A stretch of DNA of 64,000 nt from a virus (lineage: Duplodnaviria > Heunggongvirae > Uroviricota > Caudoviricetes), in IMG/VR virus record IMGVR_UViG_3300018475_000004; one strand, written 5' to 3'. Below, in pieces: positions 11,566 through 64,000 of this stretch (positions within the stretch are counted from its first letter, which is position 1; every line of letters begins with the position of its first letter). The notes under the pieces were generated by a model. It saw nothing but the letters and a program-made list of their open reading frames with translations. It was not told where the DNA came from and searched no databases. The position numbers and the translations under genes were made by a program.

Positions 11566-12047
11566 GAACTCTTGCATTGGACCAGGCCAGTCGCGTGACT
11601 GGTTGGGCAGTATTTGATGATGGTGAACTTTACAATTATGGCAAGTTCTCCGCAACTCAAACCGATGTTGGAGATAGACTTCACTTTATTCGCAAGGAAG
11701 TTATTGGTTTAATTGAGAAGTTTGATATTGACGAAGTCGTCTTTGAAGATATTCAACTTCAAAATAATGTTGTCAATAATGTAGCCACCTTTAAAGCATT
11801 GGCTGAGGTATTTGGCGTTTTACATGAATTATTTGTTGAAATGAAAATGCCTCGAACCGCCGTTCTTTCTACCGTCTGGAAATCTTCTCTTGGTATCAAG
11901 GGAAAAGATCGTCCAGCCTAGAAGAAAGCCGCACAAGATTGGGTTGTAAAAACCTATAATGTAAAACCAACACAGGATGAATGTGATGCTATTTGTATTG
12001 GCGCTCATTATACCAAAAATAAGGTCGAAGTATTCGATTGGTCCTAA
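11562..12047 (+). CDS. RuvC-like Holliday junction resolvase containing one in-frame TAG (11919-11921) read as a sense codon
   Basis: N-terminus LALDQASRVTGWAVF (catalytic Asp). The conserved C-terminus QDECDAICIGAHY lies downstream of the TAG in the same frame. The true stop is TAA at 12045. Confidence 0.75.
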
Positions 12048-12111
12048 CTAATAAATCCCCCTATCCAACTTCTTATAAATGTCAGAGAAGTTAGAAAGGG
12101 GGATACTTTAA

Positions 12112-12570
12112 ATGGAATTATTAGCTGAGTGGGGTATGGAGATTTTGTTTGCTCTTATCAGTGCCGGTGTAATTGGTTATGCTAAGTTCAAAACTCGTGA
12201 ATTGAATCGTGAATTAAGAAACGCTAGAGAATTAGCCGCCGCCCAAGAGAGACAACATGTCGAGGACACCATTGAGATCCATTTAGAACCAGTATATCAG
12301 GAATTAGAGGAACTAAGAAAATATATCAGAGAAACTGAGAACATCGAGAAGACTCATATGAATCTGATTATTGCTTCTTATCGTTTCCGCTTAGTACAAT
12401 TATGCAAAGGATTCTTAGCTCAGGGATATATTACTCCTGCACAGATGGAACAGTTAACCGAGTTCTATAAATTATATACTGGTTTGGGTGGCAACGGTCA
12501 AGCTAAAATCTATTATGATAAGGCTATGGCTTTAGACTTAAAAGTTGATAATGACGACGTTGTTGATTAA
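12112..12570 (+). CDS. Hypothetical membrane-anchored coiled-coil protein (152 aa)
   Basis: N-terminal hydrophobic segment ILFALISAGVIGY; last gene of the plus-strand module. Confidence 0.6.
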   Translation: MELLAEWGMEILFALISAGVIGYAKFKTRELNRELRNARELAAAQERQHVEDTIEIHLEPVYQELEELRKYIRETENIEKTHMNLIIASYRFRLVQLCKGFLAQGYITPAQMEQLTEFYKLYTGLGGNGQAKIYYDKAMALDLKVDNDDVVD

Positions 12571-12586
12571 ACCAAAAAAAAATAAG

Positions 12587-12630
12587 GGGTCGATTATGAT
12601 TATTCATAATCGACCCTTATTTCATTTTTA
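12587..12630. terminator. Bidirectional rho-independent terminator at the junction of the convergent modules
   Basis: 13-bp perfect stem GGGTCGATTATGA/TCATAATCGACCC flanked by an A-run upstream and a T-run downstream. Confidence 0.7.
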
Positions 12631-12928
12631 TACCATTATAAATCGCGTTTGTCCGTTCTAATATATCTTCTCCATATTCAGTCATAAGCTCTGCTACCAT
12701 TTCCTCTTCATCATATGATAAATCCACAGCATAGCTAAACATAAAAGCATGAACTAATTCATGACATAAGACTTCTTTTAGTTGTTGAGGGGAAAGAGTC
12801 TTGTCTATACATATAGTCTATGTGACTTTATCACAAACTCCAAGAGCGTGAGTTCTCCAAGGCGTAAGTAGCATTGGATGGGCTGGCGAGACCAACCGGA
12901 CCCGCCAGCGCACGCCATTTATAATCAT
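12617..12928 (-). CDS. Small recoded ORF (about 85-103 aa, 1 in-frame TAG) with an HExxH motif
   Basis: Reading through TAG at 12818-20 gives ...QQLKEVLCHELVHAFMFSYAVDL.... ATGA overlap with the upstream gene. Not in the ORF track because the TAG splits it. Confidence 0.35.
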
Positions 12929-13506
12929 TTCATTTGACCAATTTTAGAAGCCAATGCGGTTATCTTCTTTTCAAGATATGCTTTTTCTTCTGGAGAAGCA
13001 TCCGCAATCATTTCGGTAATATCCAGAGATAGCTCTTGCATATACTTTTCTAACTCACGCAATTGAGTAGCTTTATCTCGTTTCATATCCTTGGCTTCCA
13101 TATACATTCTACGACTATTATAACTGCGGCCTTCGCGCTCATCGCGCCACATACCTGGGTCATCGTAATAATTTCTTCCATTAGAACTATTCATTCCAGA
13201 AGAAGAAGAATTATCATTGTCAGCATAGAATGTACCATCACTTCTACGATTTCTGTCATAATACATGCGGCTGTCACCATTTTCCTACTGGTGATGGCCG
13301 CCTTTTTTCATTTCAAACTCCATTTCGTGTGAAGAGTTGTTCATAGCTTCTGTAACGGTGCAATAGTAGATTGCCTCTTCTAAATCTTTAATCATATCAA
13401 TAGCTTCTCCAAGCTCTTTAGTATCTACTTCACCCAAATCACATAATTGTACTTCAACAGCACACATTAAAGTTTCTTTCATGTGTTTTAATCTTTCGTG
13501 GTCCAT
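12925..13506 (-). CDS. Hypothetical late protein (193 aa, 1 in-frame TAG at 13285)
   Basis: ORFs 13285..13506 and 12925..13266 share a frame and are joined by TAG (...GGHHQ-Q-ENGDSRMYYDR...); ribosome-binding site AAGGAGGG; true stop TGA. Confidence 0.6.
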
Positions 13507-13517
13507 ACTATCCCTCC

Positions 13518-13940
13518 TTACGCAGAACGTTCAGCAATTAGATTTGCATTTTGTACATCAATTGGCTGAGTAGAAATATTCTTCACGGCCACATGAGAGC
13601 AGCATCCTTTTGGAATATCAATAAAGATAGATGCGCTCACATTGAAGAAATCTCCAACTGCGGCAGGGGTGACAGTCATAATTGTAGCTGGAACCGCTTC
13701 ACCATCCAAAGAGATAGCTAAGGAAATTGGTCCGACGGTGCCACCTTCTGCAATCGCGACATTTGCGCCGAAATGTACTCTAAAACGGGCGCGGCACTGA
13801 GTATTGGTGACTCCGCGAAGAGTCACCAATCCACTACCATCACGATGCTCGATAGAATAATTTCCAGAAGTAACAGAATCAGTGAAATAAACATTCTGAT
13901 TTGCGGGAACTGTTTGAACAGCATTAGCAATAATTTCCAT
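13518..13940 (-). CDS. Hypothetical protein (140 aa)
   Basis: Intact ORF; ribosome-binding site AAGGAGGAAAG; TAA stop. Confidence 0.6.
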   Translation of the reverse strand: MEIIANAVQTVPANQNVYFTDSVTSGNYSIEHRDGSGLVTLRGVTNTQCRARFRVHFGANVAIAEGGTVGPISLAISLDGEAVPATIMTVTPAAVGDFFNVSASIFIDIPKGCCSHVAVKNISTQPIDVQNANLIAERSA

Positions 13941-13959
13941 ATACTTTCCTCCTTAGATA

Positions 13960-14676
13960 TTAGTTGCAGCCACATCCAGCATAGTAGTTCATACCACAAC
14001 CATAGCTAGCATATGGATTAGCTACCATGTATGCAGGAATAGGAGCCTTAGTTCCTAACTGGTCGATCAAGAAAGCGTTCTGAGCTTGCTGAGAAGCGGT
14101 CAAGCGCAAAGCCTGATTTTCAGCCTGCAAAGTAGCAATCTTATCCTGAGTCAAGAAGTCTAAGATAGAGCGAACACCATTATTATTGTTTTCAATAATA
14201 TCTCTCGCGGCATTGGCAATATTAGTATTAGTTGCGTTAGATTGAGTCAAGATATTATAGTTGACTTCGCACAAACCTCTCTCAATCAAGCGCTGAGTTT
14301 CGCAGCAACAAGCAGCTTGCTCTGCGGACATATCACACAAACGGCCCATAATGGCGTTAGTGTTCTGCATATTACCCATAGTAACATTACCAAAACCAGT
14401 TAGCAAAGAAGTGTTCATGTCATAGAAACCATCGCATAGACCATGCTCTAGTCCACGGATTCCATTTTCTAGATTGTTGATATCAAAGCCATAAGAAACA
14501 GCGTCGCGAGCGTTACCTGCGCCAAGGCCGCCGCCATAGCCACCATTACCCCATCCCGCAAACAGGAATAACAGTAACAGCCACCATGCGCCGTCGCCAT
14601 CTCCACCGAAACCAGTACCACTTCCACGGGTTACAGCAGCGATATCAGATAAATTATAACCTTTTCCATTGAACAT
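13960..14676 (-). CDS. Gly/Cys-rich membrane protein (238 aa)
   Basis: GFGGDGDG-AWWLLLLFLFAGW-GNGGYGGG transmembrane segment flanked by Gly runs; Cys-rich C-terminus; ribosome-binding site AGGAGG. Confidence 0.6.
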   Translation of the reverse strand: MFNGKGYNLSDIAAVTRGSGTGFGGDGDGAWWLLLLFLFAGWGNGGYGGGLGAGNARDAVSYGFDINNLENGIRGLEHGLCDGFYDMNTSLLTGFGNVTMGNMQNTNAIMGRLCDMSAEQAACCCETQRLIERGLCEVNYNILTQSNATNTNIANAARDIIENNNNGVRSILDFLTQDKIATLQAENQALRLTASQQAQNAFLIDQLGTKAPIPAYMVANPYASYGCGMNYYAGCGCN

Positions 14677-14697
14677 AATTTTTTTCCTCCTTAAATT

Positions 14698-14952
14698 TTA
14701 AGTGTTGTAGCCTAATGCACGTTTAAAGGCTTCGAACTCCTGGTCGAAATTTTGACCGCCCTACTGGGCGTAAAGGTTGCGAATTACTTTCTCTAATTCG
14801 ACAGTGCGACCAGATTGAGCTAAATTTAGGAGATTTTTTCCGAGGGGATTATCATAGGCTTGTCCTTTCAAAATTGATAACATCAATTGCTGAGGATTTT
14901 GCCCGGATTTAATCATTTGGATTAATTTATTTGGGTTTACTGGATACATCAT
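14698..14952 (-). CDS. Hypothetical small protein (84 aa, 1 TAG at 14761)
   Basis: ORF 14761..14952 extended through TAG to TAA at 14698; ribosome-binding site AGGAGGTATGA. Confidence 0.5.
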
Positions 14953-14962
14953 TCATACCTCC

Positions 14963-15397
14963 TTAGAATGACATTAATTCTACTTTTTCTTTTGCGGGGG
15001 CAGATACGGCCGGCTCGGTTGGCTTCTGGAGCATTTGTAGTTGCGCCAGGACCTGCTCAAACTCTTCTCTCGTTACAAATTTCTCAACGGATGGAACAGA
15101 ACCGCTCTCTTCTCTCTAAACGGGCATTTCCCTTAATTCATACACACACAGTGATGCGGTGCCATCCATATTTATTTGTTTTGTGTAGATTCGTCTGTTC
15201 GCTAAATCTGGGAAGTAGAATACAGAACCATCAAAGTCAATAGAGGTTGCACGGGCCTCTTCCAATGATGCTACCAAGCGTCCTTTCAGTCCTGCTTGCG
15301 GCGGCGCCTGTCGTAAGTAAGACAATGGTTGGTACACTGGTTGCTATTGGGCGACTTGCTAGGGTTGTTGTGGATAATAATTATAGTTTGAGTACAT
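14963..15397 (-). CDS. Hypothetical protein with Q/P/Y-rich N-terminus (144 aa, 3 in-frame TAGs)
   Basis: ATG at 15397 with ribosome-binding site GGAGAGGAGA. TAGs at 15359 and 15344 fall inside YPQQP-Q-QVAQ-Q-QPVYQP. TAG at 15116 joins to the TAA at 14963. Confidence 0.6.
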
Positions 15398-15651: not shown

Positions 15652-16059
15652 TTACTCAGTAACAGGAACAATCTTACTTACATTAACCTCAGCCTCAATA
15701 CGACTAGTAATGTAGGCGGTCAAGTCGCCATAAATGGAAGCCAAATAATGCTTAGCTTCATCAGTTAATACAGACATAACTGCATTATAAGTCAAATTGA
15801 AAGCTTCCTTCTGAGCTTCTGCATCAAACTTACCTTGCTTCTTCAAAGATTCAACATAAGTCTGATTAGTTGCGATAACGCAAGTAGTGATAGTATCAGC
15901 AAGCATTTGAATGTACTTATCTGCTAATTCACTATCAGTCTTATCTGCGATTTCTTGGCTCTTCATTTTAATGAATTGAACTAAGTACATAGTCAATACA
16001 CCCAAGAGAGGAATAACGCAAAGTTCAAAAATTTGATATAACATAACCATCCAGTCCAT
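15652..16059 (-). CDS. Putative holin-like single-TM protein (135 aa)
   Basis: N-terminal transmembrane segment VIPLLGVLTMYLVQFI then a soluble coiled region; ribosome-binding site AAGGGGGA; terminator immediately downstream. Confidence 0.4.
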   Translation of the reverse strand: MDWMVMLYQIFELCVIPLLGVLTMYLVQFIKMKSQEIADKTDSELADKYIQMLADTITTCVIATNQTYVESLKKQGKFDAEAQKEAFNLTYNAVMSVLTDEAKHYLASIYGDLTAYITSRIEAEVNVSKIVPVTE

Positions 16060-16080: not shown

Positions 16081-18255
16081 TTAGAATTGAACAAATGAAT
16101 CTCTAGAATCAATATACATATATAATTGAGTCAGAGTCCATGGTTGCTACAGGGTCCAAACAACATATAAATTTAAAGTAGCTCCATCTGCTACGCCTAA
16201 ATCATCAACAAATCCTTGACCAAATCGATAGTCAGGAGAAGTGGCAGATGCAGATCTACTCCAACCAATAGCTTCATAGCCATCCTTCGTCCATCCAGAA
16301 GGAAGAGTTCTAAAAGTATTGGTGGTAGCTGCAGGAATACAACTAACACTTAATGTATTACCATTGCTATTGTCATGATATTTAATTGTAAACTCTTTTG
16401 TATCCCAAACTGCATATAAAATAACTGTTGCGCCTGCGGCTCCAATATTATTGAAAGTATCTCCAGCTTCATAAGTCGCAGTCGTAGCAGAAGATGATGT
16501 AGACCATCCTAAGAAGATTAAGCCATTGGCTGCAATGGTTCCAGTAGGAATGGTATAATTAGTATTACGAGCACAAGTCATATTACTAAAATCACCACTT
16601 TGAATACTACCACCATTTAGATTGAAAATAACTGTATAAGTGGCTTCACCCCATTGAGCGTATAAAGTAACAGTTCCTCCGGCAGTAGTTGTTAAATCAG
16701 TTACTACAGCATTATTAGCATATGTAGTTCCTGTTCCATCTTCTTTGGTATTCCATCCGGTAAAGGTATAACCAGAATGGGTAAAACTATTAGTTCTTAA
16801 ACTAGAGCCTTCACCATAAGTATGAGATGTATTAGCCATAGAACCAGTACCACCATTAGCATTATAAACAACAGTATAAGTATTTCCAACCCATTCTGCA
16901 GTCGCAGTTACATTGCCAGCATAATTACCATTGAAAACCCAAGAGCGAGTATCAGAAGCAGTAACCATTGCGGCGGCTGGATTATCGCCCATAAAATAGA
17001 AAGTAGCACCACTAGTATTCTATTGACCTGAGCCTCCAGAGAAAGTAAATCCAGTACAAGTATAACCAGGTTTTGTTGGCTTATTGTCTGGCTAGTATCC
17101 TTCGTAACTATCTAAATTACCAATATAAGTTAGAGTACCATAAGAGAATTCTGTGGTAAAAGGACTTGAAGTAGTATTGTCACCGTTATACATTGTACCA
17201 CCATTTGGATTAATGGTTAATGTATATACATTGGGTGTCCAATATGGATAAAAAGTTGCAGGAGCATCTGTCTGATAAGTTCCATTTAAGGTATTTACCC
17301 ATACCGTACCTGCGGCGTCAGAAGCCCAATCAGTTTGAGTATAACCAGAACGAGTGAATTGCACTCCTTTTAAGGTTAAATTTGTACCATGAGTTTTATA
17401 AACAGAACTCTCTGTACCAGAACCATAAGTACCAGCTTTATATTGAACTAAATAAGTCGCAGAACTTGCGTTAGCAGTATAAGACTTATTACCATAAATA
17501 TAAAAACTATAAGGGTTTGCGGTTGAAGTTTCTGAACCTGTCCAGTTTACAAAGCTATATCCAGAAGATGGAGTAGCTCTAATGGTTACTAAATCGCCTT
17601 CTGTATAAGTGCCACCGCCACTTACAGAACTGATACCAGTACCTTTACTCAAACTTACAGTATAAGATGCTGCATTTTGAGTATAAGTAACATAAGCATC
17701 AGTGCAAATTGCGCCACTGTGATAAAAACCATAAATTTGGCTTGTAGATTTAGTATATAAGAATAAATAATATGAAGTATTTGGGGAAAAAGATCCGTAG
17801 AAAGTAGGAGACCAAGTATTAAGATTTAGAGAATTTCCAGTAAGAGAACTGGTACTAGCCTCACTTCCAATTGCGTAATTTCTAAAAGTGCTGTAAGTAT
17901 CACTACTACTACTTGTAGAAGTAGTTCTTAAACTAGCATATAATGGATAAGTAGAAGTAAGACCTTTGTAAGTATGGTCAAAACCTTGAACTGTAATTGT
18001 TAAAGCACTAATAGTAACATTTGATAAATTTGGAGTAGTTACTTTGATAGCAACTGTAAATTTACTATTACCGCTTGGATCACAAGCCATGGGGTTGACA
18101 TTTCCACCGAAGAAATCTTCTCCATCATTAACGCCCCAACCTTCATCGTCAGTTGTAGAAGTGCCTAGGTTGCCGCCAGAGGGTCCAAACCAGTAGACTC
18201 CAGTGGCAGCAACTCTTGCACGAACACCATTTATAGTGCAATCATAAGTTGCCAT
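16081..18255 (-). CDS. Tail fibre/adhesin with Listeria-Bacteroides (Flg_new-type) repeat domains (724 aa, 3 TAGs)
   Basis: ORFs 17092..18255 and 16147..16992 share a frame and are joined by TAGs at 17092, 17020 and 16147. Repeats TYTVVYNANGGTG...LYAQW and YTVIFNLNGG...LYAVW. Ribosome-binding site AAAGGAGAAAA. Confidence 0.65.
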
Positions 18256-18287
18256 TGTATATTTTCTCCTTTCTCACCTAGATTTTA

Positions 18288-20393
18288 TTAAGTCAATAAG
18301 AAGAAAATTCGACCTTCTTCTAAATTAGTAGTTGGTAAAGTAGGACCATAATTACTAGAATTTAGAACGATAGTTGTACCATTTAAATAAACAGTTGGAG
18401 AAGTCACAGTTGCTTTAGTATCAGTCAAAGTTAGATAAGAAGTACCTGCGGAATGACTCTTCAATTGACCACTCAACTTGATGTTTGTAGCATTGATTTG
18501 TCCAGAGAATGTACCTGTTGTACTTGTGATACCAGCGCTAAAATTAACAGCTCCAGTAAAAGTCTTTGCTCCTGCAAAAGTCTGAGTAGTAGTAGAAACT
18601 AGACCAGGATTTTCGCCAGTAGCAGATTGAATGCCATTAGTAGAAGTATAAGTAGCACCATTAATGACAAAACTAATAGTTGGATTAGAAGCGCCTGTGC
18701 TGAAACTTAAACTTGGGCTAGCATATAGAGGAGCAGAAGTAGTACCGCCAGATACTAAAATACGGCCTGCGGCCATAGGAGTAACCTGTCCTACTGCATT
18801 AGTTCCATTGCCATATAATAAAGAATAAGCACTTAAAGAGTTAGCGCCAGTACCACCATGCTCGACAGAGACAGTAGAACAAGCAGTAACTTCACCGCTC
18901 GCAGCAACAAACACTGGTGCATTCAGACCACCAACGGCCGCAGTAGTGCTAGCCTTAGTAACAATTAAGCCAGAAGTATTAGGTAGCTGTAATTCACAAT
19001 CAGCAGAACCAGCATTACTTGTTAGCTTATGCTTATAGTTATTATTATTAGGATTATGGAAATAAGTTTCTTTAAAATGAGCAACTTCAACTGGGGCTCC
19101 AGCAGCTCCTAAGTTAGTTGCCAATAAATTAGTAGAAGTGATGCTAGTGAAACCAATCATAGTTGCGGGAATGATTAGAGTATAACCATCTTCATTAGAA
19201 CCATCAACAATAGTTCCAGTTGTGCCGGCAGTGCCAGAAATAGAGATATTGCGTTCAGCACCCCATTTAGCAGTAGTAATTGCTTCAGTTTCTCCGCCTT
19301 TAACTTCAGTGCCATTTAAAAGAATTGCATTGGTCCAAGAAGTTGCATCTCTAGCTGTACCTTCTAAATCTCCAGCAAAAGCTCCTTCAAACTGGGCTGC
19401 ATTGATTGAAGTGGAATGAAGTTCTTCAATATAAGCAGTAGGAATATAATTAGATTCAGCTCCTAAGGAACCTGTCCAAAAATAACCTTCTGCAAGCGTA
19501 AAACTTGCATCACCAGCCATAGCCACTATTCCTGGAGTATTATCCTAATTGCTTACACTAAACACTGCGGTCTAATCCTCTGTAGCTAATATTAAAGTTT
19601 CTGGACTTTGAATTATTCCTACTTTATTATATTCTGTACTATCATCTCCAAATAAAACTGCAGCATCTCCAATTCCAATGGCATAACCGTTATTTAATTC
19701 TAATGCAGGCATTGTACCAATTATAATGCCTGGATAAAAAGATTTCAATCCTAATGGCATCTATTGGATTTCTGTAATACTATTCTTGGCAGGCATCATT
19801 AAACCAGGGTTATATATTGTTGCTTCAGGGAAAAAATTAGAAGCTATTACAGTTCCATCTTCAAAAGTTAAATCTAATCTAAGGCCATCAACTAAATCAA
19901 TATTGCTAGAATTATACTAAATTTTAAATTTAGCGCTGCTAATATTGCTACCGCCAATTTTTACTCGATTGCCATTTTCATCATCATAATATAATTCACC
20001 AAAGTTTTTATCTCCATCTTTAGCAAAATATACTGTGCCTTTATTTTTACTGGATGGAAGATCAGTCTTCGCACCCATCTTTAATTTGATATCCATTCTC
20101 TTTCCATATATGATAATTCCAAAGGAGATTCCATCATCTAAATAAATATGAGCTTGAAAACTTAATGAACTACCAATTTGAATTTCATTCTAATAATTTG
20201 AATCCCAATACCATAAAGCAGCTTCGCCATTAGGCCCATTAATAATCCAATCTGAAGTAACTGTCGCTTCGACGGGATCTCCACTTTTATAAATGCCCAT
20301 ACTAGATCCATAGTAGCCTGTCATTTCTTCGCCTTCAAAAAAATAACGAATATAAAAACCACTATAAATCCCATCGGGTGGAAGAGTTGCCAT
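18288..20393 (-). CDS. Tail fibre protein (701 aa, 5 TAGs)
   Basis: ORFs 20190..20393, 19572..19760 and 18288..19526 share one frame and are joined by TAGs at 20190, 19917, 19761, 19572 and 19545. Gly/Thr/Ser-rich fibre-like C-terminus. Ribosome-binding site AAAGGAGGAACATAT. Confidence 0.65.
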
Positions 20394-20544: not shown

Positions 20545-21192
20545 TTATGAAACAAATTCAATCCAAAAAATATCTTGCTGATTTAATTTTCTGATTTCGT
20601 CAGTAAAATGTTCATACATACTACTAGCAATATCATAATCACCAGCTAGATCTCCGGCGTCTTCAAGGCCGTTTGGCTGAACGTTTAGTCCATATAGGAC
20701 TTTGCCAACATTTGGCATGGTGCTGATATTATAGAGGATTTTCTTTCCATCAGCATCAACACGATAAAAACGAATGGCATATTCTACTTCTGCTTCGTCT
20801 TGAGTTACTCGTCCATCAATACACCATGGAATAACCATCTTATCCTTTTCCAAAGTGCCAGGAGTAGCTTTATGAGTATAAATGTCGTAATATGGAACGG
20901 CATATAAACCAGTCACACCTTGCTTCTGGGGGTCTGCGGGATAAGTCTTATAAGAAATAACACAGGTGGTGGTAGACAAGTCCATATAATCCCAATATCT
21001 ATCCATGATAAAGTATAAATTTTCGGATTTATGGTCACGAGCAGTGCTTAGGATATCACGTTCTCCAATTGAGCGAGTACGCCAATCAACTTCAATGTAA
21101 TCCTCCGCATATGGAATGGAAGCCATCTTTGGAGGATTACTTCTTTGGATTTCATATAATTTGTCAATAGCAGTTTGACTTAACTGTGACAT
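20545..21192 (-). CDS. Hypothetical structural protein (215 aa)
   Basis: Intact ORF; ribosome-binding site AAAGGAGGTCAATAATT. Confidence 0.6.
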   Translation of the reverse strand: MSQLSQTAIDKLYEIQRSNPPKMASIPYAEDYIEVDWRTRSIGERDILSTARDHKSENLYFIMDRYWDYMDLSTTTCVISYKTYPADPQKQGVTGLYAVPYYDIYTHKATPGTLEKDKMVIPWCIDGRVTQDEAEVEYAIRFYRVDADGKKILYNISTMPNVGKVLYGLNVQPNGLEDAGDLAGDYDIASSMYEHFTDEIRKLNQQDIFWIEFVS

Positions 21193-21210
21193 AATTATTG
21201 ACCTCCTTTA

Positions 21211-23223: not shown

Positions 23224-23250
23224 GTTATATCTTCCTTTCTTTATAATATT

Positions 23251-23282
23251 GTTCTAGGGAAGGAATTTCCCTTCCCTAGAAC
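23251..23282. other. Perfect 13-bp inverted repeat in the intergenic region
   Basis: GTTCTAGGGAAGG-aatttc-CCTTCCCTAGAAC. Confidence 0.5.
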
Positions 23283-23299
23283 TGAAAAATCAAATAACC

Positions 23300-23509: not shown

Positions 23510-23511
23510 CA

Positions 23512-29982: not shown

Positions 29983-30008
29983 TGTTGCTCTCCTTTCTAT
30001 CCAAATAT

Positions 30009-30044
30009 AAAAAAAATGGAGAGGATAATTATATTATCCTCTCC
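30009..30044 (-). terminator. Rho-independent terminator (minus strand)
   Basis: 12-bp stem GGAGAGGATAAT/ATTATCCTCTCC followed on the minus strand by T8. Confidence 0.7.
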
Positions 30045-32237: not shown

Positions 32238-32257
32238 TATTAGTAATCCTCCTTATA

Positions 32258-55176: not shown

Positions 55177-55277
55177 TGTAGCCAAATCAACATTAGCTTC
55201 TTGCTTCTTACCCTCTTCATCATAATACTCATAGTCAACAGTATTATCTTTTCTAAAATTGGTGGCTTTAATTCCTC

Positions 55278-58200
55278 TTAGTTCGTCTAAGCCAGAAGCC
55301 TCTAAATATTATTCCATAAATCTTTAGCATCTTCAGTTCCAGCTCCTACCCAATTGGCAATATCAACTTCTTGATATTTTTTTAAATTATCTTGATATAA
55401 TTTATTATATATTTCTCCACTTGCTGCATATAATTCTTCACTATCTTGAGACTTTGCAAAACGCTCATCTTGACTCAAAATAGAGGTTGCGGCTAACTCA
55501 GCGGCGACTTCCATTTCTTCTGCAGCCTGATGGGTAGCACGAACAATTTCTTTTAAAGAATTAATATATTCTTCATTAGCAGTATCAATGCCTAATTTTT
55601 GAAGTTCTACAGAATCAAAAGCAGCTTCTCCCATTTCATCATAAAGAGCTACTAAATCATCAATTTGTTTTTGTTGTGCTTCATTACTAGCTTTATTTAT
55701 AAGAGCAGTATCAATAGCTCCAACAACTCCACCCGTTAATGCACCTGCTAAAACTGCTGGAGCATTACCAGTAATCATCATTGCAGCCATTCCTGTGACC
55801 ATACCTTCAACTACGCCCTACCAAATAGATTTATCATCAGTTCGAGTAAGTTTAGTTTGATCTGCCTCAGCTTTTAAACGACTAGCATTTGCATTTGCCA
55901 TTGTACTTGCAGCATATGCTTCTTGAACTTTTCCATATTGATTTTCTTTAGCCGCATCAATTGATTCTTGTTTAATAATGATTTCTCCACCGACAATATC
56001 GTAATCTTCTCCACGAATCAAATTACCAGCTTTAATTAATTGTAAAGCTGCTTCATTCGCTCCGTTTAAGGCATCTCGATATGCTTCAGTACCCTTAGTT
56101 AAATTATCAAGACTGTCTCTAGCACTTTGATAATTTTCCATAGCAGAAATCATATCTTCATAAGATTTCTTAGTTTCTTCATATGCTTCTTTCAAATTAT
56201 TTGCTGCTTCAGCAGCTTTGTTAGCAGCAATAGCATCTTTATTATATTCATCAGATAAATATTTTACTCCAGCTGCTAATGCAGTAATTACTAACGTCAA
56301 GCCTGCAACTACTAATGCAATAGGCCATAAAGCTGCCCACAATGCTCCAACACCACCTGCAGCAACTTTTGCAGAAATAGCAACACCATCAAAACCTGCT
56401 GCTGCAACAATAGAAGAAGAAACACTACCTAACATTGCAAGATTGTTTCCAGTAAAAGCAGTTGTAACCATTGGAATAACCATTCCAAGAGATGTAAAAG
56501 TGGAAAGTAATTTCTCTCCAAAACTCATATCTTCATTATTCCAAGTATCAATTAATCCTTTTACTACATTAATACTCATAGCAATATTACTAATTGTATT
56601 TGCAACTGCCATAAATTTCTGGCCGACAGTTGGTGGAGGACCTTGCATTCCACTAATAGCTTCTGCCGCAGCATCTCCATTAACTTTTATATTTTTTAAT
56701 TTTTCTGCTAAATCCGCAGTAACAATACCTTGCTGTCTCCAAGATTCAATTAACTAATCAAGAATTGCATCAACTTGAGTGCCATCCATTCCCATTCCAG
56801 TTAAAGAATTTTTAACAGTTTCTGCAGTATTTAAAGCTTCCAATGCAAGATCATCTAAATTGCTTTCAATTGCATTTAAAGTAACTACTACGCTATCTCC
56901 GTTATTTAAAGAGTGTAAAATGGCATCAAAATGTGAAATATCAAGGCCTGCCGCTTTAGCCTAATTACTCATTTCAGTCAGTTCTTTAATTATTGTTGCA
57001 CTATCTAAACCTTTATTTTGTAATTGTTTTAATTTCAAAAAAACATCATACAAAGAAGAATACTACATCTAAGCTTTTTGAGCTTCATCAATCTGAGGTT
57101 TTAAAGTTGTTTTAAAATCAACTTTTTTGTCTTCAGGATTTTTTGTATTTTGCTTCTAAACAGCATATCTTAATTGCATCTCATTTTCTCGAGTCTACTG
57201 TTCAGCTGCCTCTAAAGATTTTGCAGCAAGAATTGCTTGCTCTCCATATGCTTCATTTGCTTGTAATAAATATTGAACTTGCTTTTGATTTTCTTCTGAA
57301 AGCATCTAACCTTGAGCAGTTAATTCTTTTTGTTTTGCTAATACTACATCTGTTAAAGAAGCATATTCACTGAAAGCAATTTGAGATGCAGAATTTATAG
57401 GACCAGTGTCTACATTATCTGCATACATTGTTTTTAAAGAATTTTTTGCTTGCTCTCTAAGCTCCATTAAAGACTAAACGCCCTCTTTAGAGCGCAATTT
57501 AATATTATATCCCCAATCATCAATCGCTTTTGCCATATCTTTACCAAACATTTTAATCATGAGGCTAGATGCAACAGTAAGTACTCCAGGTAATCCACCA
57601 AGAGTGTCGATAGTATCAGAGATAATATTTAAGAAACCTGCAAAACCATTATTTAAATCAATAAAAAATTCATCGTTCAATAATTGGTTATAAATTTCTT
57701 CTGCCGCTGCAGTAACTCTATCTTTTGCAGCTTCCCAAGATTCTGCATAAATATCTGCTTGTTCTTGTAAAGTGCCAGTGGCATTATAAGCAGTATTTAA
57801 GTTAGCTGTCATACTATCAGAATCTCCAGCATTCCAGTTATCCATTAAAGCAATTAGCTAAGTATATTGACGAACGCCAGCAACAGTCTATGCTAAAGCA
57901 ATTTGTTGATCCTTCGCTAAAGTTCCCCATTTTTCAGCCATTTCATTTAGAATGTTATCCATCTTTTTGATTTCGCCATTCTACTCAAAAATGCTAATTC
58001 CAATTTTTGATAAAGCTTCTGAATATTTATTTAAAGAAGTTCCATCTTCAAGAGTTTCACCTAAATTTAAACCTTGAATACGTGCAAAAATAGTTTTTAA
58101 TGCAGTACCAACAACTTCTTCACTTTGACGAGTGTTAGAAGTAATAGTTGCTAATGCAGAAGCAGCATATTCATAACTTAAACCAATAGTCTAACCAATT

Positions 58201-59069
58201 GCCGCAAACTTTTCTAAACCGCCTGCAATTTCATCAGTACTAGATGCAGTTGCTGCACCAAGAGCAGTCATAACATCAGCATAATATTCCAAAGATTTGG
58301 AACCGTCATAGAAGTTATTCCAAACAGCAGTTAATTGATCAGAAATTTTCTAAGCACTTTCACCTGCGGCATTTGCCATTTTTACAGTTACTTCTGTTCT
58401 CTTGGCAACTTCTTCATCACTTAAACCCTATTGATAAAAAATCAAAGAAGCGTTAGTATATTCTGTAGTAGTTGTGCTTAAAGCCTAAGCTGCCGCATTA
58501 GCTTCTTTTGCAAATCGTGACATTTCATCAATATTTGCTCCAGTAACAATACGAATATTATTTAAAGATTCATTTAAATCTTGCGCGTAACCATAGGCAG
58601 ATTGTACCGCTCCCATAAAACCATGTAACATACTAGAAGACAATTGCCATCTAGCAGTATTCATAAGAGAAGTTTTAAATTCTTTTAATACACTATTTGT
58701 TCTTTTTAAAGGAACTTCAGCGTTAATAATTGCTTTTGCTAATTTAGCAAAAGCTTGATCTCCCTATGGACCTAAAGAACTTAGAGTTCTGGCATAATCA
58801 GAAATTTTTGTTTGTCCCTAACTTAAGCTCTGATTAAATTTACCTAAATCTAAACCACCAGATGCATTTTTAGAAGACTCTAACATTGCCTATAATTTAG
58901 CGACTTCATTAGTTGCCTAAGCTATATCTTTAGTAATACCAAGGCCTGTGGTATTTTTACTTGCAGTAGTCATTAAATTATTTAAAGCACTTTGTAAATC
59001 TTGGATTTGCTGTTTAGCTTGTGTATTACTTGCCGTAAATCGCAAATCTACATTTAACTGTTTAGCCAT
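55278..59069 (-). CDS. Tape measure protein (about 1263 aa, many TAGs)
   Basis: ATG at 59069 with ribosome-binding site AAAGGAG. Alpha-helical Ala/Gln/Lys-rich sequence with hydrophobic segment ALWPIALVVAGLTLVITALAAG. Fragments 57474..57845, 55818..56648 and 55302..55802 share the frame and are joined by TAGs. TAA stop at 55278. Confidence 0.6.
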
Positions 59070-59795: not shown

Positions 59796-61121
59796 TTAAT
59801 TTCCTTTGGTAATACCAACCTTACGCTTATCAGTCATAGTCTTATCGCCTTCTAGAACAACATTACCTTGAATTAAAGCAATATAATTTTCAGTTTTTAA
59901 TAGCTGTTCCATTCTTTTAGAGAATGTCATAAAGCCGTAAGGAGTTAAAACATACTGGTTGCCCTCTTCTGATAAATGTAAAACTTTATGCATAACAGTA
60001 GCAAGACCGTAATTTGCTAAGGCATTGTAGTCAGGACTGCTATCTTTTACAACCCAAGGCTATTTTTCATTTTCAGCATCATTTAAAGTACTCAATAACT
60101 AAAAAGTTCTTCGTACTGATATATCTAAATTATCTTCACCATATTCGCCAATAGAAACACTTGTAGAAGCATTCTAGTTCCATGGCAACTGATTCTTACC
60201 AGACTTAGCCTGAATATTAATAGATTGTAAATTAGTAAGTACGTCATAAGTCTCATCTGTGATTGAAATCTATTTATTTTGACCATTGGCGGCTTCTATA
60301 TCCTAAAATAATTTAGACAAAGGAGCTTTTATATATTTATCAGATCCTACTGGACGATATTCAACCTCTATATCATTTAAAATATCTGGACTAGTAATAT
60401 CAAAAGCAATTAAGTCTTGAATTAACTAACCTCTATGTCTACCTTTTCTACCATCTGTATTTAAATAAACACTACCTAAACGAATACTTTCAATATTTGG
60501 GATCTTTAATTTTCTAAAAAAAGCAACACCTAATTCTTCTAATGTATCACCCTTCATTTGATTTACATTTTTTAAAAATTCATTTACAACACCACTATCA
60601 AATGAAGTAATGCCGCAAGCATTTAATGCAGTTTGAACTTTTTCAAGAGTTGCTCCCATTACAGTTTGATTTCCAAATTCATTTACAGAAGAAATGTTTA
60701 ATTCAGTCATTAATTCAGTTAATGATTTTTCTAAGGCTTTTAAAGCATTTTGTAAATATTTCCATGCATTTTGACTTTTCTATTCATCTTTACTTGCCCA
60801 ATAAAATCTATTCATTGTCGTGACAAAGTGCTCTATCATTTCATTGATTCTATCTGCTTCGTCTCCTTCAAATGAATCTATTACAGTTTGAAAATTTTCT
60901 TTACCCAAACCATCTAAGTTTTTAAATTTAGAATCCATTATTGCATTTTCACATTCACGAATTTTTGCAATCTAATAGTTTCTAATTGCAGTGTTATCTG
61001 GCACTGAAACTTGGTTTAATAAAGAATACTATGGAGTTCCGCTATAAGGGTCCCAAAAAGGATTTTTATCGGCATATCCTTCAATAATATTTCTTCTAGC
61101 AAATTCACTACCAATACCCAT
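59796..61121 (-). CDS. Tail structural protein (about 441 aa, several TAGs)
   Basis: Fragments 60426..60710 and 59796..59993 share a frame with ATG 61121; ribosome-binding site GGAGAGAAAGG; joined by TAGs. Confidence 0.45.
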
Positions 61122-61205: not shown

Positions 61206-62258
61206 TTACATCAAATACTTCTCGTGAGCAGGATCGTGAGAAGTACGAGTACGTGCTCCGACTTCAGCAGCGTTACCAGTCTGGATGATCTGGATAGCAG
61301 CTAGAACCTTCTTAGTAGGATCGAAGCGAGTGTAGTCTGGGAATGCGTCCATGGTGAAGGTGAAAGTAGATGGATCACCAGAAGAAGCCATGGTGAAAGT
61401 GAAGTTAGACTGAATCTTGCAGTTAGGAATGATGAACTCAGCAGGCATATCAACACCGTTAGTATCACGGAATAGAGTAGAAGCCTCTAAGTAGTAGTTA
61501 CCACCGAACTTGTCGGGAGTAATCTCAATCTGCTGTGCGGCAGATGCGTGTTCAACATAATAGTCGACCAATACGACATCTTCGTTAGCAAATACATTTA
61601 CTTCATCAAAACCAGGGTTAGCTTCACGAGAAGGTCTTGCGCCAGTGACAGCGGCACCATTCAATACAATCATCCAACCATCGGCCTCGTCTTCAGAAGT
61701 ACCATCAGCCATAGGTGCATACCAATCGCTCTCTTCATCAAAGACAACAGCGGTAACAGCATTGTGATCAGGAATATATGGTTCAGTAGCAACTTCGCCA
61801 TTATCTAACTTCATAACATAAATTAAATCTTCATGAGCACCAACTAAAGCACCATCAGCATTCATTTTACCAACGTAAGGCTTTTGAGTCAAAACAATCT
61901 GAACTTCAGTACCTTCAACTCTAACCTTATTAGTCTGCTCAGTAGTGTGAACCTTTAGAGTGTTCTTAGAAGTAGCCTCAACCAAGCCAGCACCAGATAG
62001 AATCATGAAGCCAGCGGGAGAGATCAATGCATCTTCCATAGTGAAAGTAACAGTTCTCTCACCTTCCCAAGCGATTAGACGAGAGTTACCACGACCGCCC
62101 TGTGCGTAAGAAGTAGTAGCAGTACCTTCCATGCTGGAAGTCTTCAAAGTGTCGAAATAAATAACAGGCTCATTCTTATAGAAGACTTTATTACCAACCT
62201 TCTGAGCGGCCTTTGCCTTTAGAACGACATCACAAATTTCGCGAACGCCAAATTTCAT
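61206..62258 (-). CDS. Major tail (tube/sheath-like) structural protein (350 aa)
   Basis: Intact ORF with strong ribosome-binding site AAGGAGG; leads the tail gene cluster; C-terminal beta-rich region FTFTMASSGDPSTFTFTMDAF. Confidence 0.45.
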   Translation of the reverse strand: MKFGVREICDVVLKAKAAQKVGNKVFYKNEPVIYFDTLKTSSMEGTATTSYAQGGRGNSRLIAWEGERTVTFTMEDALISPAGFMILSGAGLVEATSKNTLKVHTTEQTNKVRVEGTEVQIVLTQKPYVGKMNADGALVGAHEDLIYVMKLDNGEVATEPYIPDHNAVTAVVFDEESDWYAPMADGTSEDEADGWMIVLNGAAVTGARPSREANPGFDEVNVFANEDVVLVDYYVEHASAAQQIEITPDKFGGNYYLEASTLFRDTNGVDMPAEFIIPNCKIQSNFTFTMASSGDPSTFTFTMDAFPDYTRFDPTKKVLAAIQIIQTGNAAEVGARTRTSHDPAHEKYLM

Positions 62259-62281
62259 AGGTAGTATCCTCCTTAAAAATA

Positions 62282-63007
62282 TTAGTGGATATTTTTCATC
62301 CAGTTATCCGGCTAAGAATCCGGCTTTGCGCCAGCCAACCGAGACCGAATATCCATATCCCAATTAATATATAGCATATATCTTTCAACTAAATCGTATA
62401 ATTGGAACATGGTCAATTCAGTCGCGTCTTGTAGAGACATTGAATGTAGTCCTACAGTAATGATTGAAAGATATTGGCTAAATATACTTGTGTTAGTTTC
62501 GCCCTTTTGAGCCGCAACTCTCTAACGTCCTCGCATAAGTTTTTCAGCGATCTCTCTCGCTTTAGCATCTGCGGGATTGAAAGTTGTCTGATCCATAGGG
62601 CCAGTTTTTAAACAGCAAATAGTTGATATAGCATTTTGTAAAAATTCAAAGTTAGTTTCATCAATTTGAATATTTGCTGAGCCATCACTTAATAGCACAG
62701 AGCGTGGTGTCATCAGCAATCTATGTTTTGGAAAAAACAAAGAACAAACTTGCTAAACAGCTCTTTTTTTATCTGCCGCTTCTTTTTCTGACATTATCGT
62801 CATAAATATCTAAAAGTTGCTCGTATTGAGTAAATCACTTTCGTCCTTTACAAACATAGATTTATTCAAACACAAACATTGAACTCCTGAGAAAAAATCT
62901 GTCTCCCCAATATATGCAATTTCTTTTATTTGAGGCTAATGAACTGTAATCTATAATTCTGGAACTGGATAATCAGCTCCACACATTAGAGCTAATCTAG
63001 TATCCAT
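62282..63007 (-). CDS. Hypothetical neck/tail completion protein (241 aa, 6 TAGs)
   Basis: Contains ORF 62522..62740; continuous frame from ATG 63007 to TAA 62282 once TAG is read through. Confidence 0.45.
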
Positions 63008-63009
63008 AA

Positions 63010-63600
63010 TTATTTATCCTCATTAAAAATTGCATTAAAGTTCTCAATAAATGCCTCTTCATCCATTGGATTCGGCATAAATTTTTTATCTTCTTCTCCA
63101 TGGATTGCTCTAAAAGTAATACATAAACCAGCATATTCATCGGTAAGTAAAATTTGATTAGCACCATTAAATTCTAATTTACCAATGCCAGTTAAATGCT
63201 ATTCACTAAACATAGAATCTAATTCTGCTGCAATTTTATATGGACGCAATTCAAAATCTTTCATATGCCATTGATCATAATGACAAATAATATCAAATTC
63301 AATAATATTATCTCTAAATTCTGGATTAGTACGATTTGGTACAAAATTATCAAAACTAACGATAATATAATTTAATACAGAATGATCTATATATAATTTT
63401 GGAACAATTTTTATTTGCTCTCCAAATAAACTATTGGTCTACATTTTAGTTAGTTTTGGTCTATCTAAACAATCCTTGGTTGTGTAATAAAGCATTTTCT
63501 TTAAACGATCATTTTTCATAATCATCTAAACAATAATACCCATATCCTTTTCTAAAGCTAAAAAACTAGACTTAGGATATGTATAAGTTTCAATTTTCAT
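63010..63600 (-). CDS. Hypothetical structural protein (196 aa, 3 TAGs)
   Basis: ATG at 63600 with ribosome-binding site AAAAGGAG; continuous to TAA 63010 once TAG is read through; not in the ORF track. Confidence 0.45.
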
Positions 63601-63626
63601 ATAAACACTCCTTTTACTCTTAGTTC

Positions 63627-64000
63627 TTAAAATAGAGATTCTACTACAATAGTCTTACTATATTTTGAATATCTCAATTCAAACTAACCGCTGAATGATC
63701 CTTCCCAGGTAACTACTACTATACGAGGATCATCTTTATCAATATCTAAGGTCACAGGATATTTTTTATCCACTTCCCAGACTGCTCCAATATTACCATC
63801 AAATTTAAACACAGCAGGTTGTCTAATTTTAATGAAGGTATCACCAATAATCTTACCACCAGCTACATTTGGATCTGGAATTTCTTCAATTAATCCATCT
63901 ACAACACCATTTTCAACATCATCTTCAAATTCATTTGCATAATATTCAACTGCGGCAATCTCTAAAATACCAGGAGTAGAAATCCAATCAAGAGCTTCAA
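63627..64000 (-). CDS. 3' end of an upstream structural gene (partial, 1 TAG)
   Basis: Open frame runs from the window edge to TAA at 63627. Confidence 0.35.

What the first reader, a model, noticed from the sequence alone, without database searches (positions are those of the whole stretch)
11919..64000. TAG is used as a sense codon throughout the late module (code-15-like stop-codon recoding)
On the minus strand from 12.6 to 64 kb, adjacent ORF-track fragments repeatedly lie in the same frame and are separated by a single TAG. Examples are TAGs at 13285, 14761, 15116, 16147, 17092, 19545, 19572, 19761, 20190, 35527, 37048, 38059, 38251, 39103, 39808, 40378, 41775, 42120, 43161, 44154, 44838, 47604, 48372, 50449, 51586, 51808, 52183, 52390, 52948, 53380, 55302, 55818 and 57474. 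Reading through them gives 700-1860-aa genes with proper ribosome-binding sites and starts. Every true terminator I checked is TAA or TGA, and no gene in the window ends in TAG. That is more than 85 in-frame TAGs in total. Stop-codon reassignment is known in some gut phages, but it makes standard gene calling fail on this region.
Basis: partly seen in the sequence, partly recalled or inferred. Interest (0 to 1): 0.95.

Follow-up and report, generated by a model that had tools for sequence, protein, structure and literature searches.

The report
TAG read as glutamine in phage
This window is part of a roughly 183-kb gut phage related to Bacillus phage SPbeta, and it uses the stop codon TAG as an ordinary codon (almost certainly glutamine) in many of its tail and virion genes; this is real but belongs to an already well-described kind of phage recoding.

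Summary
All 33 listed TAGs are in frame in long minus-strand ORFs bounded only by TAA or TGA. I count 94 in-frame TAGs in 16 genes, and none of 41 genes ends in TAG.

TAG is a sense codon, most likely Gln. Profile matches run straight across TAGs. The tape-measure homologue is one 2750-3270-aa ORF in 47 relatives. In relatives whose tape-measure gene has no TAG, Gln (CAA/CAG) is the commonest residue opposite the window's TAGs (47 of 149). Close relatives swap TAG with CAA/CAG, including a single TAG/CAG change in a 94%-identical genome.

- The 1263-aa and 1876-aa ORFs are one 3129-aa tape-measure gene, split in the window by a 1-nt deletion. The TAG at 55302 is therefore out of frame.
- Recoding is mosaic. 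A 14.7-kb block (20545-35160), the tail tube gene and the holin have no TAG.
- One TAG sits in a plus-strand RuvC-like gene.

No suppressor tRNA was found in the window or in about 17 kb flanking it. Syntenic regions of relatives also gave no canonical tRNA. About 43 kb of the genome was not examined.

Verdict: a new member of a known kind (code-15 gut phages), of modest interest.

The parts
616..11565 (+). Replication and nucleotide-metabolism genes with no in-frame TAG: helicase, DNA polymerase III alpha (2426-6391), guanylate kinase, NrdD (7227-9446), NrdG and a dUTPase-like gene. They are readable under the standard code.
   Evidence: Codon table per gene. Pfam families recorded for the identical genes on contigs L057 and L058.
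11562..12047 (+). RuvC-like Holliday-junction resolvase with one sense TAG at 11919-11921. It is the only recoded gene on the + strand.
   Evidence: phrog_159 and phrog_827 match as single stretches over residues 1-150 and 2-153, across the TAG at residue 120. The catalytic DxxDA-like motif lies after the TAG. In the 94%-identical relative L059 the codon is CAG.
12617..15397 (-). Small genes at the 3' end of the - strand module. In-frame TAGs: 12617-12928 has 1 (12818); 12925-13506 has 1 (13285); 14698-14952 has 1 (14761); 14963-15397 has 3 (15116, 15344, 15359). The genes 13518-13940 and 13960-14676 have none.
   Evidence: PHROG matches run across the TAGs in 12617-12928 and 14963-15397.
15652..16059 (-). 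Holin with no TAG.
   Evidence: phrog_13712 'holin', E = 9e-35. Codon table.
16081..20393 (-). Two genes of about 700 aa each. 16081-18255 carries Listeria-Bacteroides repeats and has 3 TAGs. 18288-20393 has 5 TAGs.
   Evidence: AGGAG-type ribosome-binding sites lie upstream of both starts.
20545..35160 (-). TAG-free block of seven genes (4762 codons), including a 2156-aa protein with BspA-type leucine-rich repeats (23512-29982). CAG is at least as common as CAA here, unlike in the TAG-bearing genes.
   Evidence: 38 TAGs expected, 0 observed, P about 3e-17.
35245..43526 (-). Three large tail or baseplate-region genes with sense TAGs: 35245-37401 (5), 37783-40680 (9) and 40680-43526 (5).
   Evidence: phrog_32343 and a 'tail protein' PHROG match 37783-40680.
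43980..49559 (-). 1859-aa gene with 6 sense TAGs. It starts at a GTG behind an AAAGGAG site, and its first TAG is codon 19 (49503).
   Evidence: A terminator-like hairpin (49674-49647) and a TTGACT-17-TATAAT promoter-like site (49618-49590) lie just upstream.
49681..59069 (-). Tail tape-measure gene (3129 aa when intact) with 36 sense TAGs. In the window it is split into 55278-59069 and 49681-55308 by a 1-nt deletion at about 55308.
   Evidence: PHROG tape-measure families match, and the homologues found carry Pfam PF10145. The otherwise identical contigs L054-L056 carry the extra A, and the gene is called as one 3129-aa product on L055. It is a single ORF in 47 relatives.
59796..61121 (-). 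441-aa gene with 9 sense TAGs. TAG makes up 38% of its Gln-plus-TAG codons.
   Evidence: It is called as one 441-aa gene on L055 and L056.
61206..62258 (-). Tail tube protein (YomU-like) with no TAG, and a CAA:CAG ratio of 1:9.
62282..63600 (-). YomV-like gene (62282-63007, 6 TAGs) and YomW-like gene (63010-63600, 3 TAGs).
   Evidence: Columns 24, 66 and 162 of the YomV-like protein are Gln or TAG in relatives.

Best explanation
**What it is.** The window is about one third of a roughly 183-kb, circularly permuted genome of an SPbeta-like siphovirus. It comes from gut metagenomes, and its host is probably a member of the Bacillota. In this genome TAG is not a terminator. It is read as an amino acid, almost certainly glutamine (translation table 15), and genes end only in TAA or TGA.

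**How the TAGs are distributed.**
- The 94 sense TAGs sit in tail and virion genes, in small genes near the holin, and in one RuvC-like resolvase gene.
- The replication genes carry none, so they can be translated by an unmodified host.
- A 14.7-kb block within the late module (it includes a 2156-aa protein with BspA-type repeats), the tube protein and the holin also carry none.

**Shown here.** TAG is in frame and must be read through to give full-length conserved proteins. It corresponds to Gln in homologues. It is never used as a stop in the window.

**Inferred from published work on code-15 phages.** Decoding would need an amber-suppressor tRNA(CUA) charged with Gln. Once that tRNA is available during infection, the TAG-bearing late genes become translatable, so the code acts as a post-transcriptional gate on late gene expression. 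That tRNA was not found in the sequence I could reach, so this step is unverified for this phage.
For: **TAGs are in frame.**
- In-frame TAGs occur only in TAA/TGA-bounded ORFs.
- A stop-blind codon-usage frame test agrees.

**Homology runs across the TAGs.**
- Single PHROG matches cross TAGs.
- Tape-measure homologues are single ORFs of 2750-3270 aa in 47 relatives, with 0 to 116 TAGs.
- The same gene is recorded as one 3129-aa product on an otherwise identical contig.

**The residue is Gln.**
- In relatives whose tape-measure gene has no TAG, read from DNA, the residues opposite the window's TAGs are Q 47, K 19 and E 19 of 149.
- At tape-measure column 214 the codons across relatives are only CAG (9), CAA (6) and TAG (12).
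- Columns 394 and 404, and YomV-like columns 24, 66 and 162, are likewise dominated by Gln or TAG.
- Column 214 is also Q in the cultured Enterococcus phage H1 and Psychrobacillus phage Perkons.
- A BLOSUM62 sum ranks Q first.

**Close relatives swap TAG and Gln codons.**
- Against L003 (82% aa identity), 17 of 21 columns with a TAG on either side are TAG/TAG or TAG against CAA/CAG.
- Against L223 (75% aa identity), the figure is 10 of 13.
- The RuvC TAG is CAG in the 94%-identical L059.

**Supporting patterns.**
- TAG-bearing genes are depleted in CAG, for example 72 CAA to 9 CAG, whereas TAG-free genes have CAG at or above CAA.
- TAG ends 0 of 41 genes.
- The distant relative phAss-1 sits in NCBI's 'Caudoviricetes code 15 clade' and carries tRNA-Sup-CTA genes.
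Against: **No tRNA was found.**
- ARAGORN and Rfam both find none in the window.
- None lies in the 8.6 kb before or the 8.2 kb after the window in the same phage.
- Close relatives have no canonical tRNA in about 50 kb upstream of the replication module.
- 49 relatives gave only one ARAGORN hit within 10 kb either side of the terminase gene: a tRNA-Asn at the edge of L089, in DNA that looks bacterial. One further relative, L223, gave nothing. A Rfam scan added a 113-nt tRNA-like element in L075, which BLAST also found in L077.
- No release-factor or aminoacyl-tRNA-synthetase domain appears among the Pfam families recorded for the loci inspected.

**Other weaknesses.**
- Many TAG columns are variable and align with K, E or other residues, so the Gln assignment rests on the conserved columns and on exchanges between close relatives.
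- Part of the protein database was itself translated with code 15, so the Q counts are partly circular and were not relied on.
- The holin carries no TAG, which does not fit a simple 'lysis genes are gated by the code' picture.
- There is no peptide evidence.
Confidence: 0.87

Rival explanations
1. TAG is a sense codon but codes for an amino acid other than glutamine, such as Glu, Lys or pyrrolysine.
For: At many variable columns the commonest residue in relatives is K or E rather than Q. ARAGORN labels any CTA-anticodon tRNA as 'Pyl'. No tRNA is available whose identity elements could be inspected.
Against: - Conserved columns are Gln encoded by CAA or CAG in TAG-free relatives.
- The BLOSUM62 sum gives Q 243, E 161 and K 99.
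- Exchanges between close relatives are overwhelmingly TAG against CAA/CAG, including a single C/T difference in the RuvC-like gene.
- CAG is specifically depleted in TAG-bearing genes.
- K and E are the usual substitutes for Q at variable sites.
- No pyl genes were seen among the recorded Pfam hits.
Confidence: 0.05
2. TAG remains a stop codon that is only partly read through. This would be leaky termination using host machinery, perhaps to limit late proteins, with no dedicated phage suppressor.
For: No suppressor tRNA was found in the window or in any flanking or syntenic sequence examined.
Against: - The tape measure has 36 TAGs. Even 90% read-through per codon would yield about 2% full-length protein of a component the virion cannot do without.
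- TAG is never used as a real terminator in 41 genes.
- TAG makes up 11-50% of Gln-plus-TAG codons in the recoded genes of more than 150 codons.
- About 43 kb of the genome was not examined.
Confidence: 0.06
3. The TAGs are genuine stops, and the region consists of decayed or fragmented genes or contains assembly errors.
For: The window does contain one real frame-breaking lesion, the 1-nt deletion at about 55308.
Against: - 94 interruptions are all TAG, none is TAA or TGA, and all preserve the reading frame.
- The same sequence appears in at least three independent assemblies, differing only at the single-base gap.
- Relatives carry TAG at the same conserved Gln columns.
- Codon usage continues across the TAGs.
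Confidence: 0.01

Closest known systems
Alternatively coded (code 15, TAG to Gln) gut phages as surveyed by Borges et al. (bioRxiv 10.1101/2021.08.26.457843): crAss-like, Lak, Jade, Sapphire, Agate, Garnet, Amethyst and Topaz clades
   Same: - In-frame TAG occurs in structural genes, while replication genes are largely readable under the standard code.
- The predicted hosts use the standard code.
- Related genomes use code 11, 15 or 4, and that survey reports four of its eight clades doing the same. Here the homologous tape-measure genes carry 0 TAG, up to 116 TAG, or 21-25 TGA aligned with Trp.
- TAG is rare as a stop even in the non-recoded relatives, as in that paper's 'ancestral depletion' model.
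   Different: - I could not assign this phage to any of the named clades, because no terminase phylogeny was made.
- The holin has no TAG, whereas that survey found lysis genes biased towards recoded stops.
- No suppressor tRNA or other code-change gene was found in the sequence examined.
phAss-1 and the proposed Phassvirus group (Babkin et al. 2023, PMC10607447; GenBank OQ749652)
   Same: - A large siphovirus from human gut with TAG-interrupted tape-measure and tail genes. Its tape measure is 3149 aa, against 3129 aa here.
- Gln occupies conserved positions opposite TAG.
- Class III ribonucleotide reductase genes are present.
- Recoded and non-recoded genomes occur within one monophyletic group.
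   Different: - Protein identity is only about 30-32%, and there is no nucleotide-level match.
- phAss-1 has 36 tRNA genes, including three CTA suppressors, two of which are annotated just upstream of nrdD. Here the region around nrdD has no tRNA at all.
crAss-like phages with proteomic proof of code 15 (Peters et al. 2022, PMC9523058)
   Same: The reassignment inferred is the same, TAG to Gln.
   Different: They belong to an unrelated family (Crassvirales, with Bacteroidota hosts). In that case the reassignment was shown with peptides; here it is inferred from sequence only.
Bacillus phage SPbeta and SPbeta-like siphoviruses
   Same: Shared gene families: YomU tube, YomV, YomW, YonB, YonD, YonG, YorF and YorH domains, a giant tape measure and a PolIII-alpha type polymerase.
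   Different: To my knowledge SPbeta itself uses the standard code; I did not test this here. Similarity to cultured phages is low. The best tape-measure matches are 26-29% identical, in Enterococcus, Psychrobacillus and Lactococcus phages.

Membership tests
Code-15 (TAG to Gln) recoded phage | In-frame TAGs in conserved phage genes, where reading through restores full-length homologues | tested here: met
   There are 94 in-frame TAGs. PHROG matches run across TAGs. The tape measure is a single ORF in 47 relatives.
Code-15 (TAG to Gln) recoded phage | TAG positions align with glutamine in homologues that use the standard code | tested here: met
   Read from the DNA of TAG-free relatives, Q is opposite 47 of 149 positions and is invariant or nearly so at conserved columns. 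Close relatives exchange TAG with CAA/CAG. Database proteins translated with code 15 were excluded.
Code-15 (TAG to Gln) recoded phage | TAG is not used as a terminator; genes end in TAA or TGA | tested here: met
   Gene ends are 31 TAA, 10 TGA and 0 TAG among 41 genes in the window.
Code-15 (TAG to Gln) recoded phage | A phage-encoded suppressor tRNA with anticodon CUA (present in many but not all described cases) | tested here: inconclusive
   None was found in the window, in about 17 kb flanking it in the same phage, or in syntenic DNA of relatives. About 43 kb of the 183-kb genome could not be reached.
Code-15 (TAG to Gln) recoded phage | Early or replication genes are readable under the host's standard code | tested here: met
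   The 11 + strand genes between 195 and 12570 other than the RuvC-like gene have 0 TAG in about 3600 codons. The RuvC-like gene at the end of that module has 1.
Code-15 (TAG to Gln) recoded phage | Peptides showing Gln at TAG positions | not testable with these tools
   This needs virion proteomics or metaproteomics.
Code-4 (TGA to Trp) recoded phage | In-frame TGA in conserved genes | tested here: not met
   There are no internal TGA codons in any curated gene of the window. The feature is present in the relatives L033 and L035, with 25 and 21 TGA in the tape-measure gene; within the aligned N-terminal part, 4 of the 5 TGA in L033 fall on invariant Trp columns.
Proposed genus Phassvirus (phAss-1 group) | Substantial nucleotide identity and synteny with phAss-1 (members share 80-86% nucleotide identity) | tested here: not met
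   There is no megablast match to any GenBank phage record, and only 30-32% protein identity to phAss-1.
SPbeta-like siphoviruses | The shared set of SPbeta structural and replication protein families | tested here: met
   YomU_Tube, YomV_2nd, YomW, YonB, YonD_N, YorF and Phage_SPbeta_YorH are recorded for the identical genes on contigs of the same phage. YonG_N is recorded in a close relative.

The most novel reading that the evidence does not exclude
This lineage may decode dozens of TAGs per gene without any canonical phage-encoded suppressor tRNA. No canonical tRNA was found in the window or in about 17 kb flanking it in the same phage. None turned up in about 50 kb of syntenic DNA in close relatives, or within 10 kb of the terminase gene in 50 relatives, apart from one tRNA-Asn in DNA that looks bacterial. 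More distant relatives do carry large tRNA arrays next to the same phosphatase gene. If the absence holds for the whole genome, decoding would depend on a host factor or on a non-canonical RNA. One candidate is the 113-nt tRNA-like element with a 43-nt insertion in its anticodon arm, seen in two recoded relatives.
Probability: 0.12. Interest if true: 0.7.

Novelty: new member of a known kind. Interest (0 to 1): 0.3.

Why it matters
**Annotation.** Under table 11 the 28 minus-strand genes break into 120 fragments. The tape measure, baseplate and tail genes are then lost as recognisable genes. The window must be annotated with table 15. Some public gene calls for this phage already do this and others do not (the JGI contig).

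**Evolution of the code.** This SPbeta-like family holds one orthologous 3000-aa gene in three coding states:
- no in-frame stops;
- 36 to 116 TAGs read as Gln;
- 21 to 25 TGAs read as Trp.

Within one genome, TAG-rich and TAG-free late genes sit side by side. That makes the family a convenient natural series for studying how stop-codon reassignment spreads gene by gene.

**Limits.** None of this changes the current understanding of phage recoding.

Tried and rejected
1. **Q counts from the protein database.** Using these counts opposite TAG as evidence was rejected as partly circular. ENA-derived proteins such as P0001 had been translated with TAG as Q: all 20 differences from a table-11 translation are TAG. 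I replaced them with codon-level look-ups on the DNA of relatives.
2. **Programmed frameshift at the tape-measure junction.** Rejected. Three otherwise identical contigs have one more A and a single ORF, and there is no slippery site.
3. **'Three TAGs' in relatives L007 and L045 as an intermediate state.** Rejected. Those TAGs lie upstream of the ATG.
4. **Hunt for the suppressor tRNA.**
   - ARAGORN and Rfam on the window and on flanks of the same phage found nothing.
   - A walk through relatives used 8 viral-contig scans, 1 metagenome scan, 1 genome scan and 2 protein searches. It found no canonical tRNA in close relatives.
   - The second protein search returned only 90%-cluster representatives, so the exact genome could not be walked.
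   - An exact 45-mer from this phage is absent from IMG/VR.
5. **The tRNA-Asn at the edge of L089.** It sits in GC-rich, probably bacterial DNA, so it is not a phage tRNA cluster.
6. **The T/C difference in the tRNA-like element of L075 and L077.** I first read it as a CTA-to-CCA anticodon change. It is better explained as a G.U-to-G-C change in a stem.
7. **Pfam and PHROG annotation of most large tail genes.** This gave nothing informative.

Full report
**1. The observation**

The window has 36% G+C. Genes on the + strand run from about 200 to 12570, and genes on the - strand from 12617 to the end.

Each is in frame in a - strand ORF bounded by TAA or TGA.

With curated starts, 15 - strand genes hold 93 in-frame TAGs and one + strand gene holds 1. 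The row for 49681-55307 was read in the wrong frame. The correct count for that part is 16.

None of these genes has an internal TAA or TGA. The 41 gene ends are 31 TAA, 10 TGA and 0 TAG. Most starts sit behind AGGAG-type ribosome-binding sites.

**2. Is it more than chance?**

I trained a codon-usage model on the four TAG-free genes between 23512 and 35160, scoring stop codons as zero. I then used it to choose the coding frame in sliding windows.

- In 35206-64000 the chosen frame contains 86 TAG. Its 16 TAA and 3 TGA all lie at gene ends or between genes.
- Read with table 11, the 28 - strand genes fall into 120 pieces with a median of 63 aa.

**3. What the genes are**

PHROG and Pfam identify the following:

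| Coordinates | Identity |
|---|---|
| 55278-59069 plus 49681-55308 | tail tape measure |
| 61206-62258 | YomU-like tube protein |
| 62282-63007 | YomV-like protein |
| 63010-63600 | YomW-like protein |
| 15652-16059 | holin |
| 11562-12047 (+) | RuvC-like resolvase |
| + strand | helicase, PolIII alpha, guanylate kinase, NrdD, NrdG, dUTPase-like |

The Yom, Yon and Yor families mark this as an SPbeta-like siphovirus.

The same phage occurs in many public assemblies. Contigs L054-L058 match the window at 99.98-99.99%. One of these, ENA k141_1895590, is 183,267 bp. It carries both ends of the window in a circularly permuted arrangement, judged from the coordinates.

There is no nucleotide-level match among GenBank phage records. 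The best protein matches there are 29-36% identical.

**4. TAG is a sense codon**

Single profile matches cross TAGs:
- tape measure, residues 17-510, 11 TAGs;
- YomV-like protein, residues 1-240, 6 TAGs;
- RuvC-like protein, residues 1-150, across the TAG at residue 120.

In 47 IMG/VR relatives the tape-measure homologue is a single ORF of 2750-3270 aa bounded by TAA or TGA. It carries from 0 to 116 in-frame TAGs. The '3 TAGs' in L007 and L045 lie upstream of the ATG, so those genes are TAG-free.

**5. Which amino acid?**

*A trap.* The large protein database contains proteins already translated with TAG as Q. P0001 differs from a table-11 translation of its own contig at exactly 20 positions, and all of them are TAG. 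The Q counts are therefore partly circular, and I did not rely on them.

*Codon-level evidence from the DNA of relatives.*
- In four distinct relatives whose tape-measure gene has no TAG, the residues opposite the window's TAGs are Q 47, K 19, E 19, D 10 and A 10 of 149.
- At tape-measure column 214 the codons across relatives are only CAG (9), CAA (6) and TAG (12). Columns 394 and 404, and YomV-like columns 24, 66 and 162, are likewise dominated by Gln or TAG.
- Column 214 is Q in two cultured standard-code phages.
- A BLOSUM62 sum over the TAG-free relatives ranks Q 243, E 161 and K 99.

*Exchanges between close relatives.*
- Against L003 (82% aa identity), 17 of 21 columns with TAG on either side are TAG/TAG or TAG against CAA/CAG.
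- Against L223 (75%), the figure is 10 of 13.
- The + strand TAG at 11919 is CAG in the 94%-identical L059, a single C/T difference.

*Within the window.* TAG-bearing genes are depleted in CAG, for example 72 CAA to 9 CAG, or 50 to 8. TAG-free genes have CAG equal to or above CAA. This fits TAG having arisen from CAG.

**6.

(a) The 1263-aa and 1876-aa ORFs overlap in different frames at 55278-55308. The otherwise identical contigs L054-L056 read AATAAATAT where the window reads AATAATAT. On L055 the gene is recorded as one 3129-aa product. The window therefore carries a 1-nt deletion.

(b) Recoding is mosaic. The block 20545-35160 has no TAG. It comprises seven genes and 4762 codons and includes a 2156-aa BspA-repeat protein. 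About 38 TAGs would be expected at the rate seen elsewhere (P about 3e-17). The tube protein, the holin and several small genes also have none.

(c) Recoding is not confined to the - strand. The RuvC-like gene needs its TAG read through in order to include the C-terminal catalytic motif.

**7. Mechanism**

By analogy with described code-15 phages, an amber-suppressor tRNA charged with Gln should decode TAG (Borges et al.; Babkin et al.; Peters et al., abstract). TAG-free early genes would then allow infection to start under the host's code. I could not show this step.

- ARAGORN and Rfam find no tRNA in the window.
- The same phage has none in the 8.6 kb before or the 8.2 kb after the window.
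- Walking through relatives found no canonical tRNA in close relatives in about 50 kb upstream of the replication module.
- In 49 relatives the only ARAGORN hit within 10 kb either side of the terminase gene is a tRNA-Asn at the edge of L089, in DNA that looks bacterial. One further relative, L223, gave nothing.
- More distant relatives carry tRNA arrays next to the same phosphatase gene, with no CTA anticodon among those listed.
- About 43 kb of the 183-kb genome remains unexamined.
- phAss-1, by contrast, has two CTA tRNAs annotated directly upstream of nrdD.

**8. Comparison with what is known**

Stop-codon reassignment in gut phages is well documented. The survey by Borges et al. describes:
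- eight clades, four of which contain code 11, 15 and 4 genomes;
- alternative code in structural and lysis genes;
- variable use of the alternative code in replication genes.

The present family behaves the same way. Relatives L033 and L035 have 25 and 21 in-frame TGA and no TAG in the tape-measure gene. In the aligned N-terminal part, 4 of the 5 TGA in L033 fall on invariant Trp columns. Relatives are binned with Oscillospiraceae, Acutalibacteraceae and Clostridium MAGs, which suggests hosts in the Bacillota but does not prove it.

This phage is not a member of the proposed Phassvirus genus.

**9. Verdict**

The finding is real and its core interpretation is correct. It is a new member of a known kind. 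The points worth keeping are the mosaic distribution of TAG, the three coding states of one orthologous gene within the family, the failure so far to find a suppressor tRNA, and the single-base lesion in the tape-measure gene.

Noticed in passing
window 55278-55310 (- strand): There is a 1-nt deletion (AATAAATAT to AATAATAT) relative to three contigs of the same phage that match every other base compared. It splits the 3129-aa tape-measure gene into two ORFs in different frames. It could be an assembly error or a real variant.
   Followed up: yes
L033 9845-18658 and L035 9950-18670: In two IMG/VR relatives the homologous tape-measure gene has 25 and 21 in-frame TGA and no TAG. In the aligned N-terminal part, 4 of the 5 TGA in L033 fall on invariant Trp columns. 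The same phage family therefore contains standard-code, TAG-to-Gln and TGA-to-Trp genomes.
   Followed up: partly
window 20545-35160 (- strand): This 14.7-kb run of late-strand genes has no TAG and a CAG-rich Gln codon usage, flanked on both sides by TAG-bearing genes. It includes a 2156-aa protein with BspA-type leucine-rich repeats. It may be a recently imported cassette, or a set of genes under different constraints.
   Followed up: partly
L075 2989-3101 (-) and L077 799-911 (-): A 113-nt tRNA-like element scores 37 bits against the Rfam tRNA model. Its acceptor, D and T arms look normal, but it has about 43 extra nucleotides in the anticodon arm and no clear anticodon loop. It lies 7-9 kb upstream of the terminase C-terminus in two TAG-recoded relatives, and default ARAGORN settings miss it. 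It is absent from the window and its flanks.
   Followed up: partly
P0001 / L003 61-2493; L055 13190-21053: Some ENA-derived proteins in the large protein database were translated with TAG as Gln, while the JGI gene calls for the same phage are fragmented. A Q opposite TAG in such database hits is circular evidence.
   Followed up: yes
L223 8178-10996: In a relative whose terminase is 86% identical, that gene is interrupted by a group I intron (Rfam, 98 bits) carrying a GIY-YIG endonuclease gene. A weak LAGLIDADG match occurs at the position of the tube gene.
   Followed up: no
window 49590-49674 (- strand): Between the tape-measure stop and the next gene lie a 12-bp terminator-like hairpin with a T tail and a near-consensus promoter-like site (TTGACT, 17 nt, TATAAT, with an upstream TG). 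The late module is probably more than one transcription unit.
   Followed up: partly
L089 1-6000: The terminase-upstream flank in one relative (contig OJAW01000012.1) is visibly GC-rich at its start, looks bacterial and holds a tRNA-Asn. This could be a prophage junction, which would mean some relatives are temperate.
   Followed up: no
window, all genes: Stop-codon choice differs by strand. The - strand genes end 27 times in TAA and 2 times in TGA. The + strand genes end 8 times in TGA and 4 times in TAA. In TAG-bearing genes CAA outnumbers CAG by about 6 to 1; in TAG-free genes the two are about equal.
   Followed up: partly
L233, L234, L239, L241, L242, L251: Distant relatives carry arrays of 6-28 tRNA genes, and one also a tmRNA gene, within the 10 kb either side of a conserved metallophosphatase gene. 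Close relatives of the window have the same gene but no tRNAs there.
   Followed up: no
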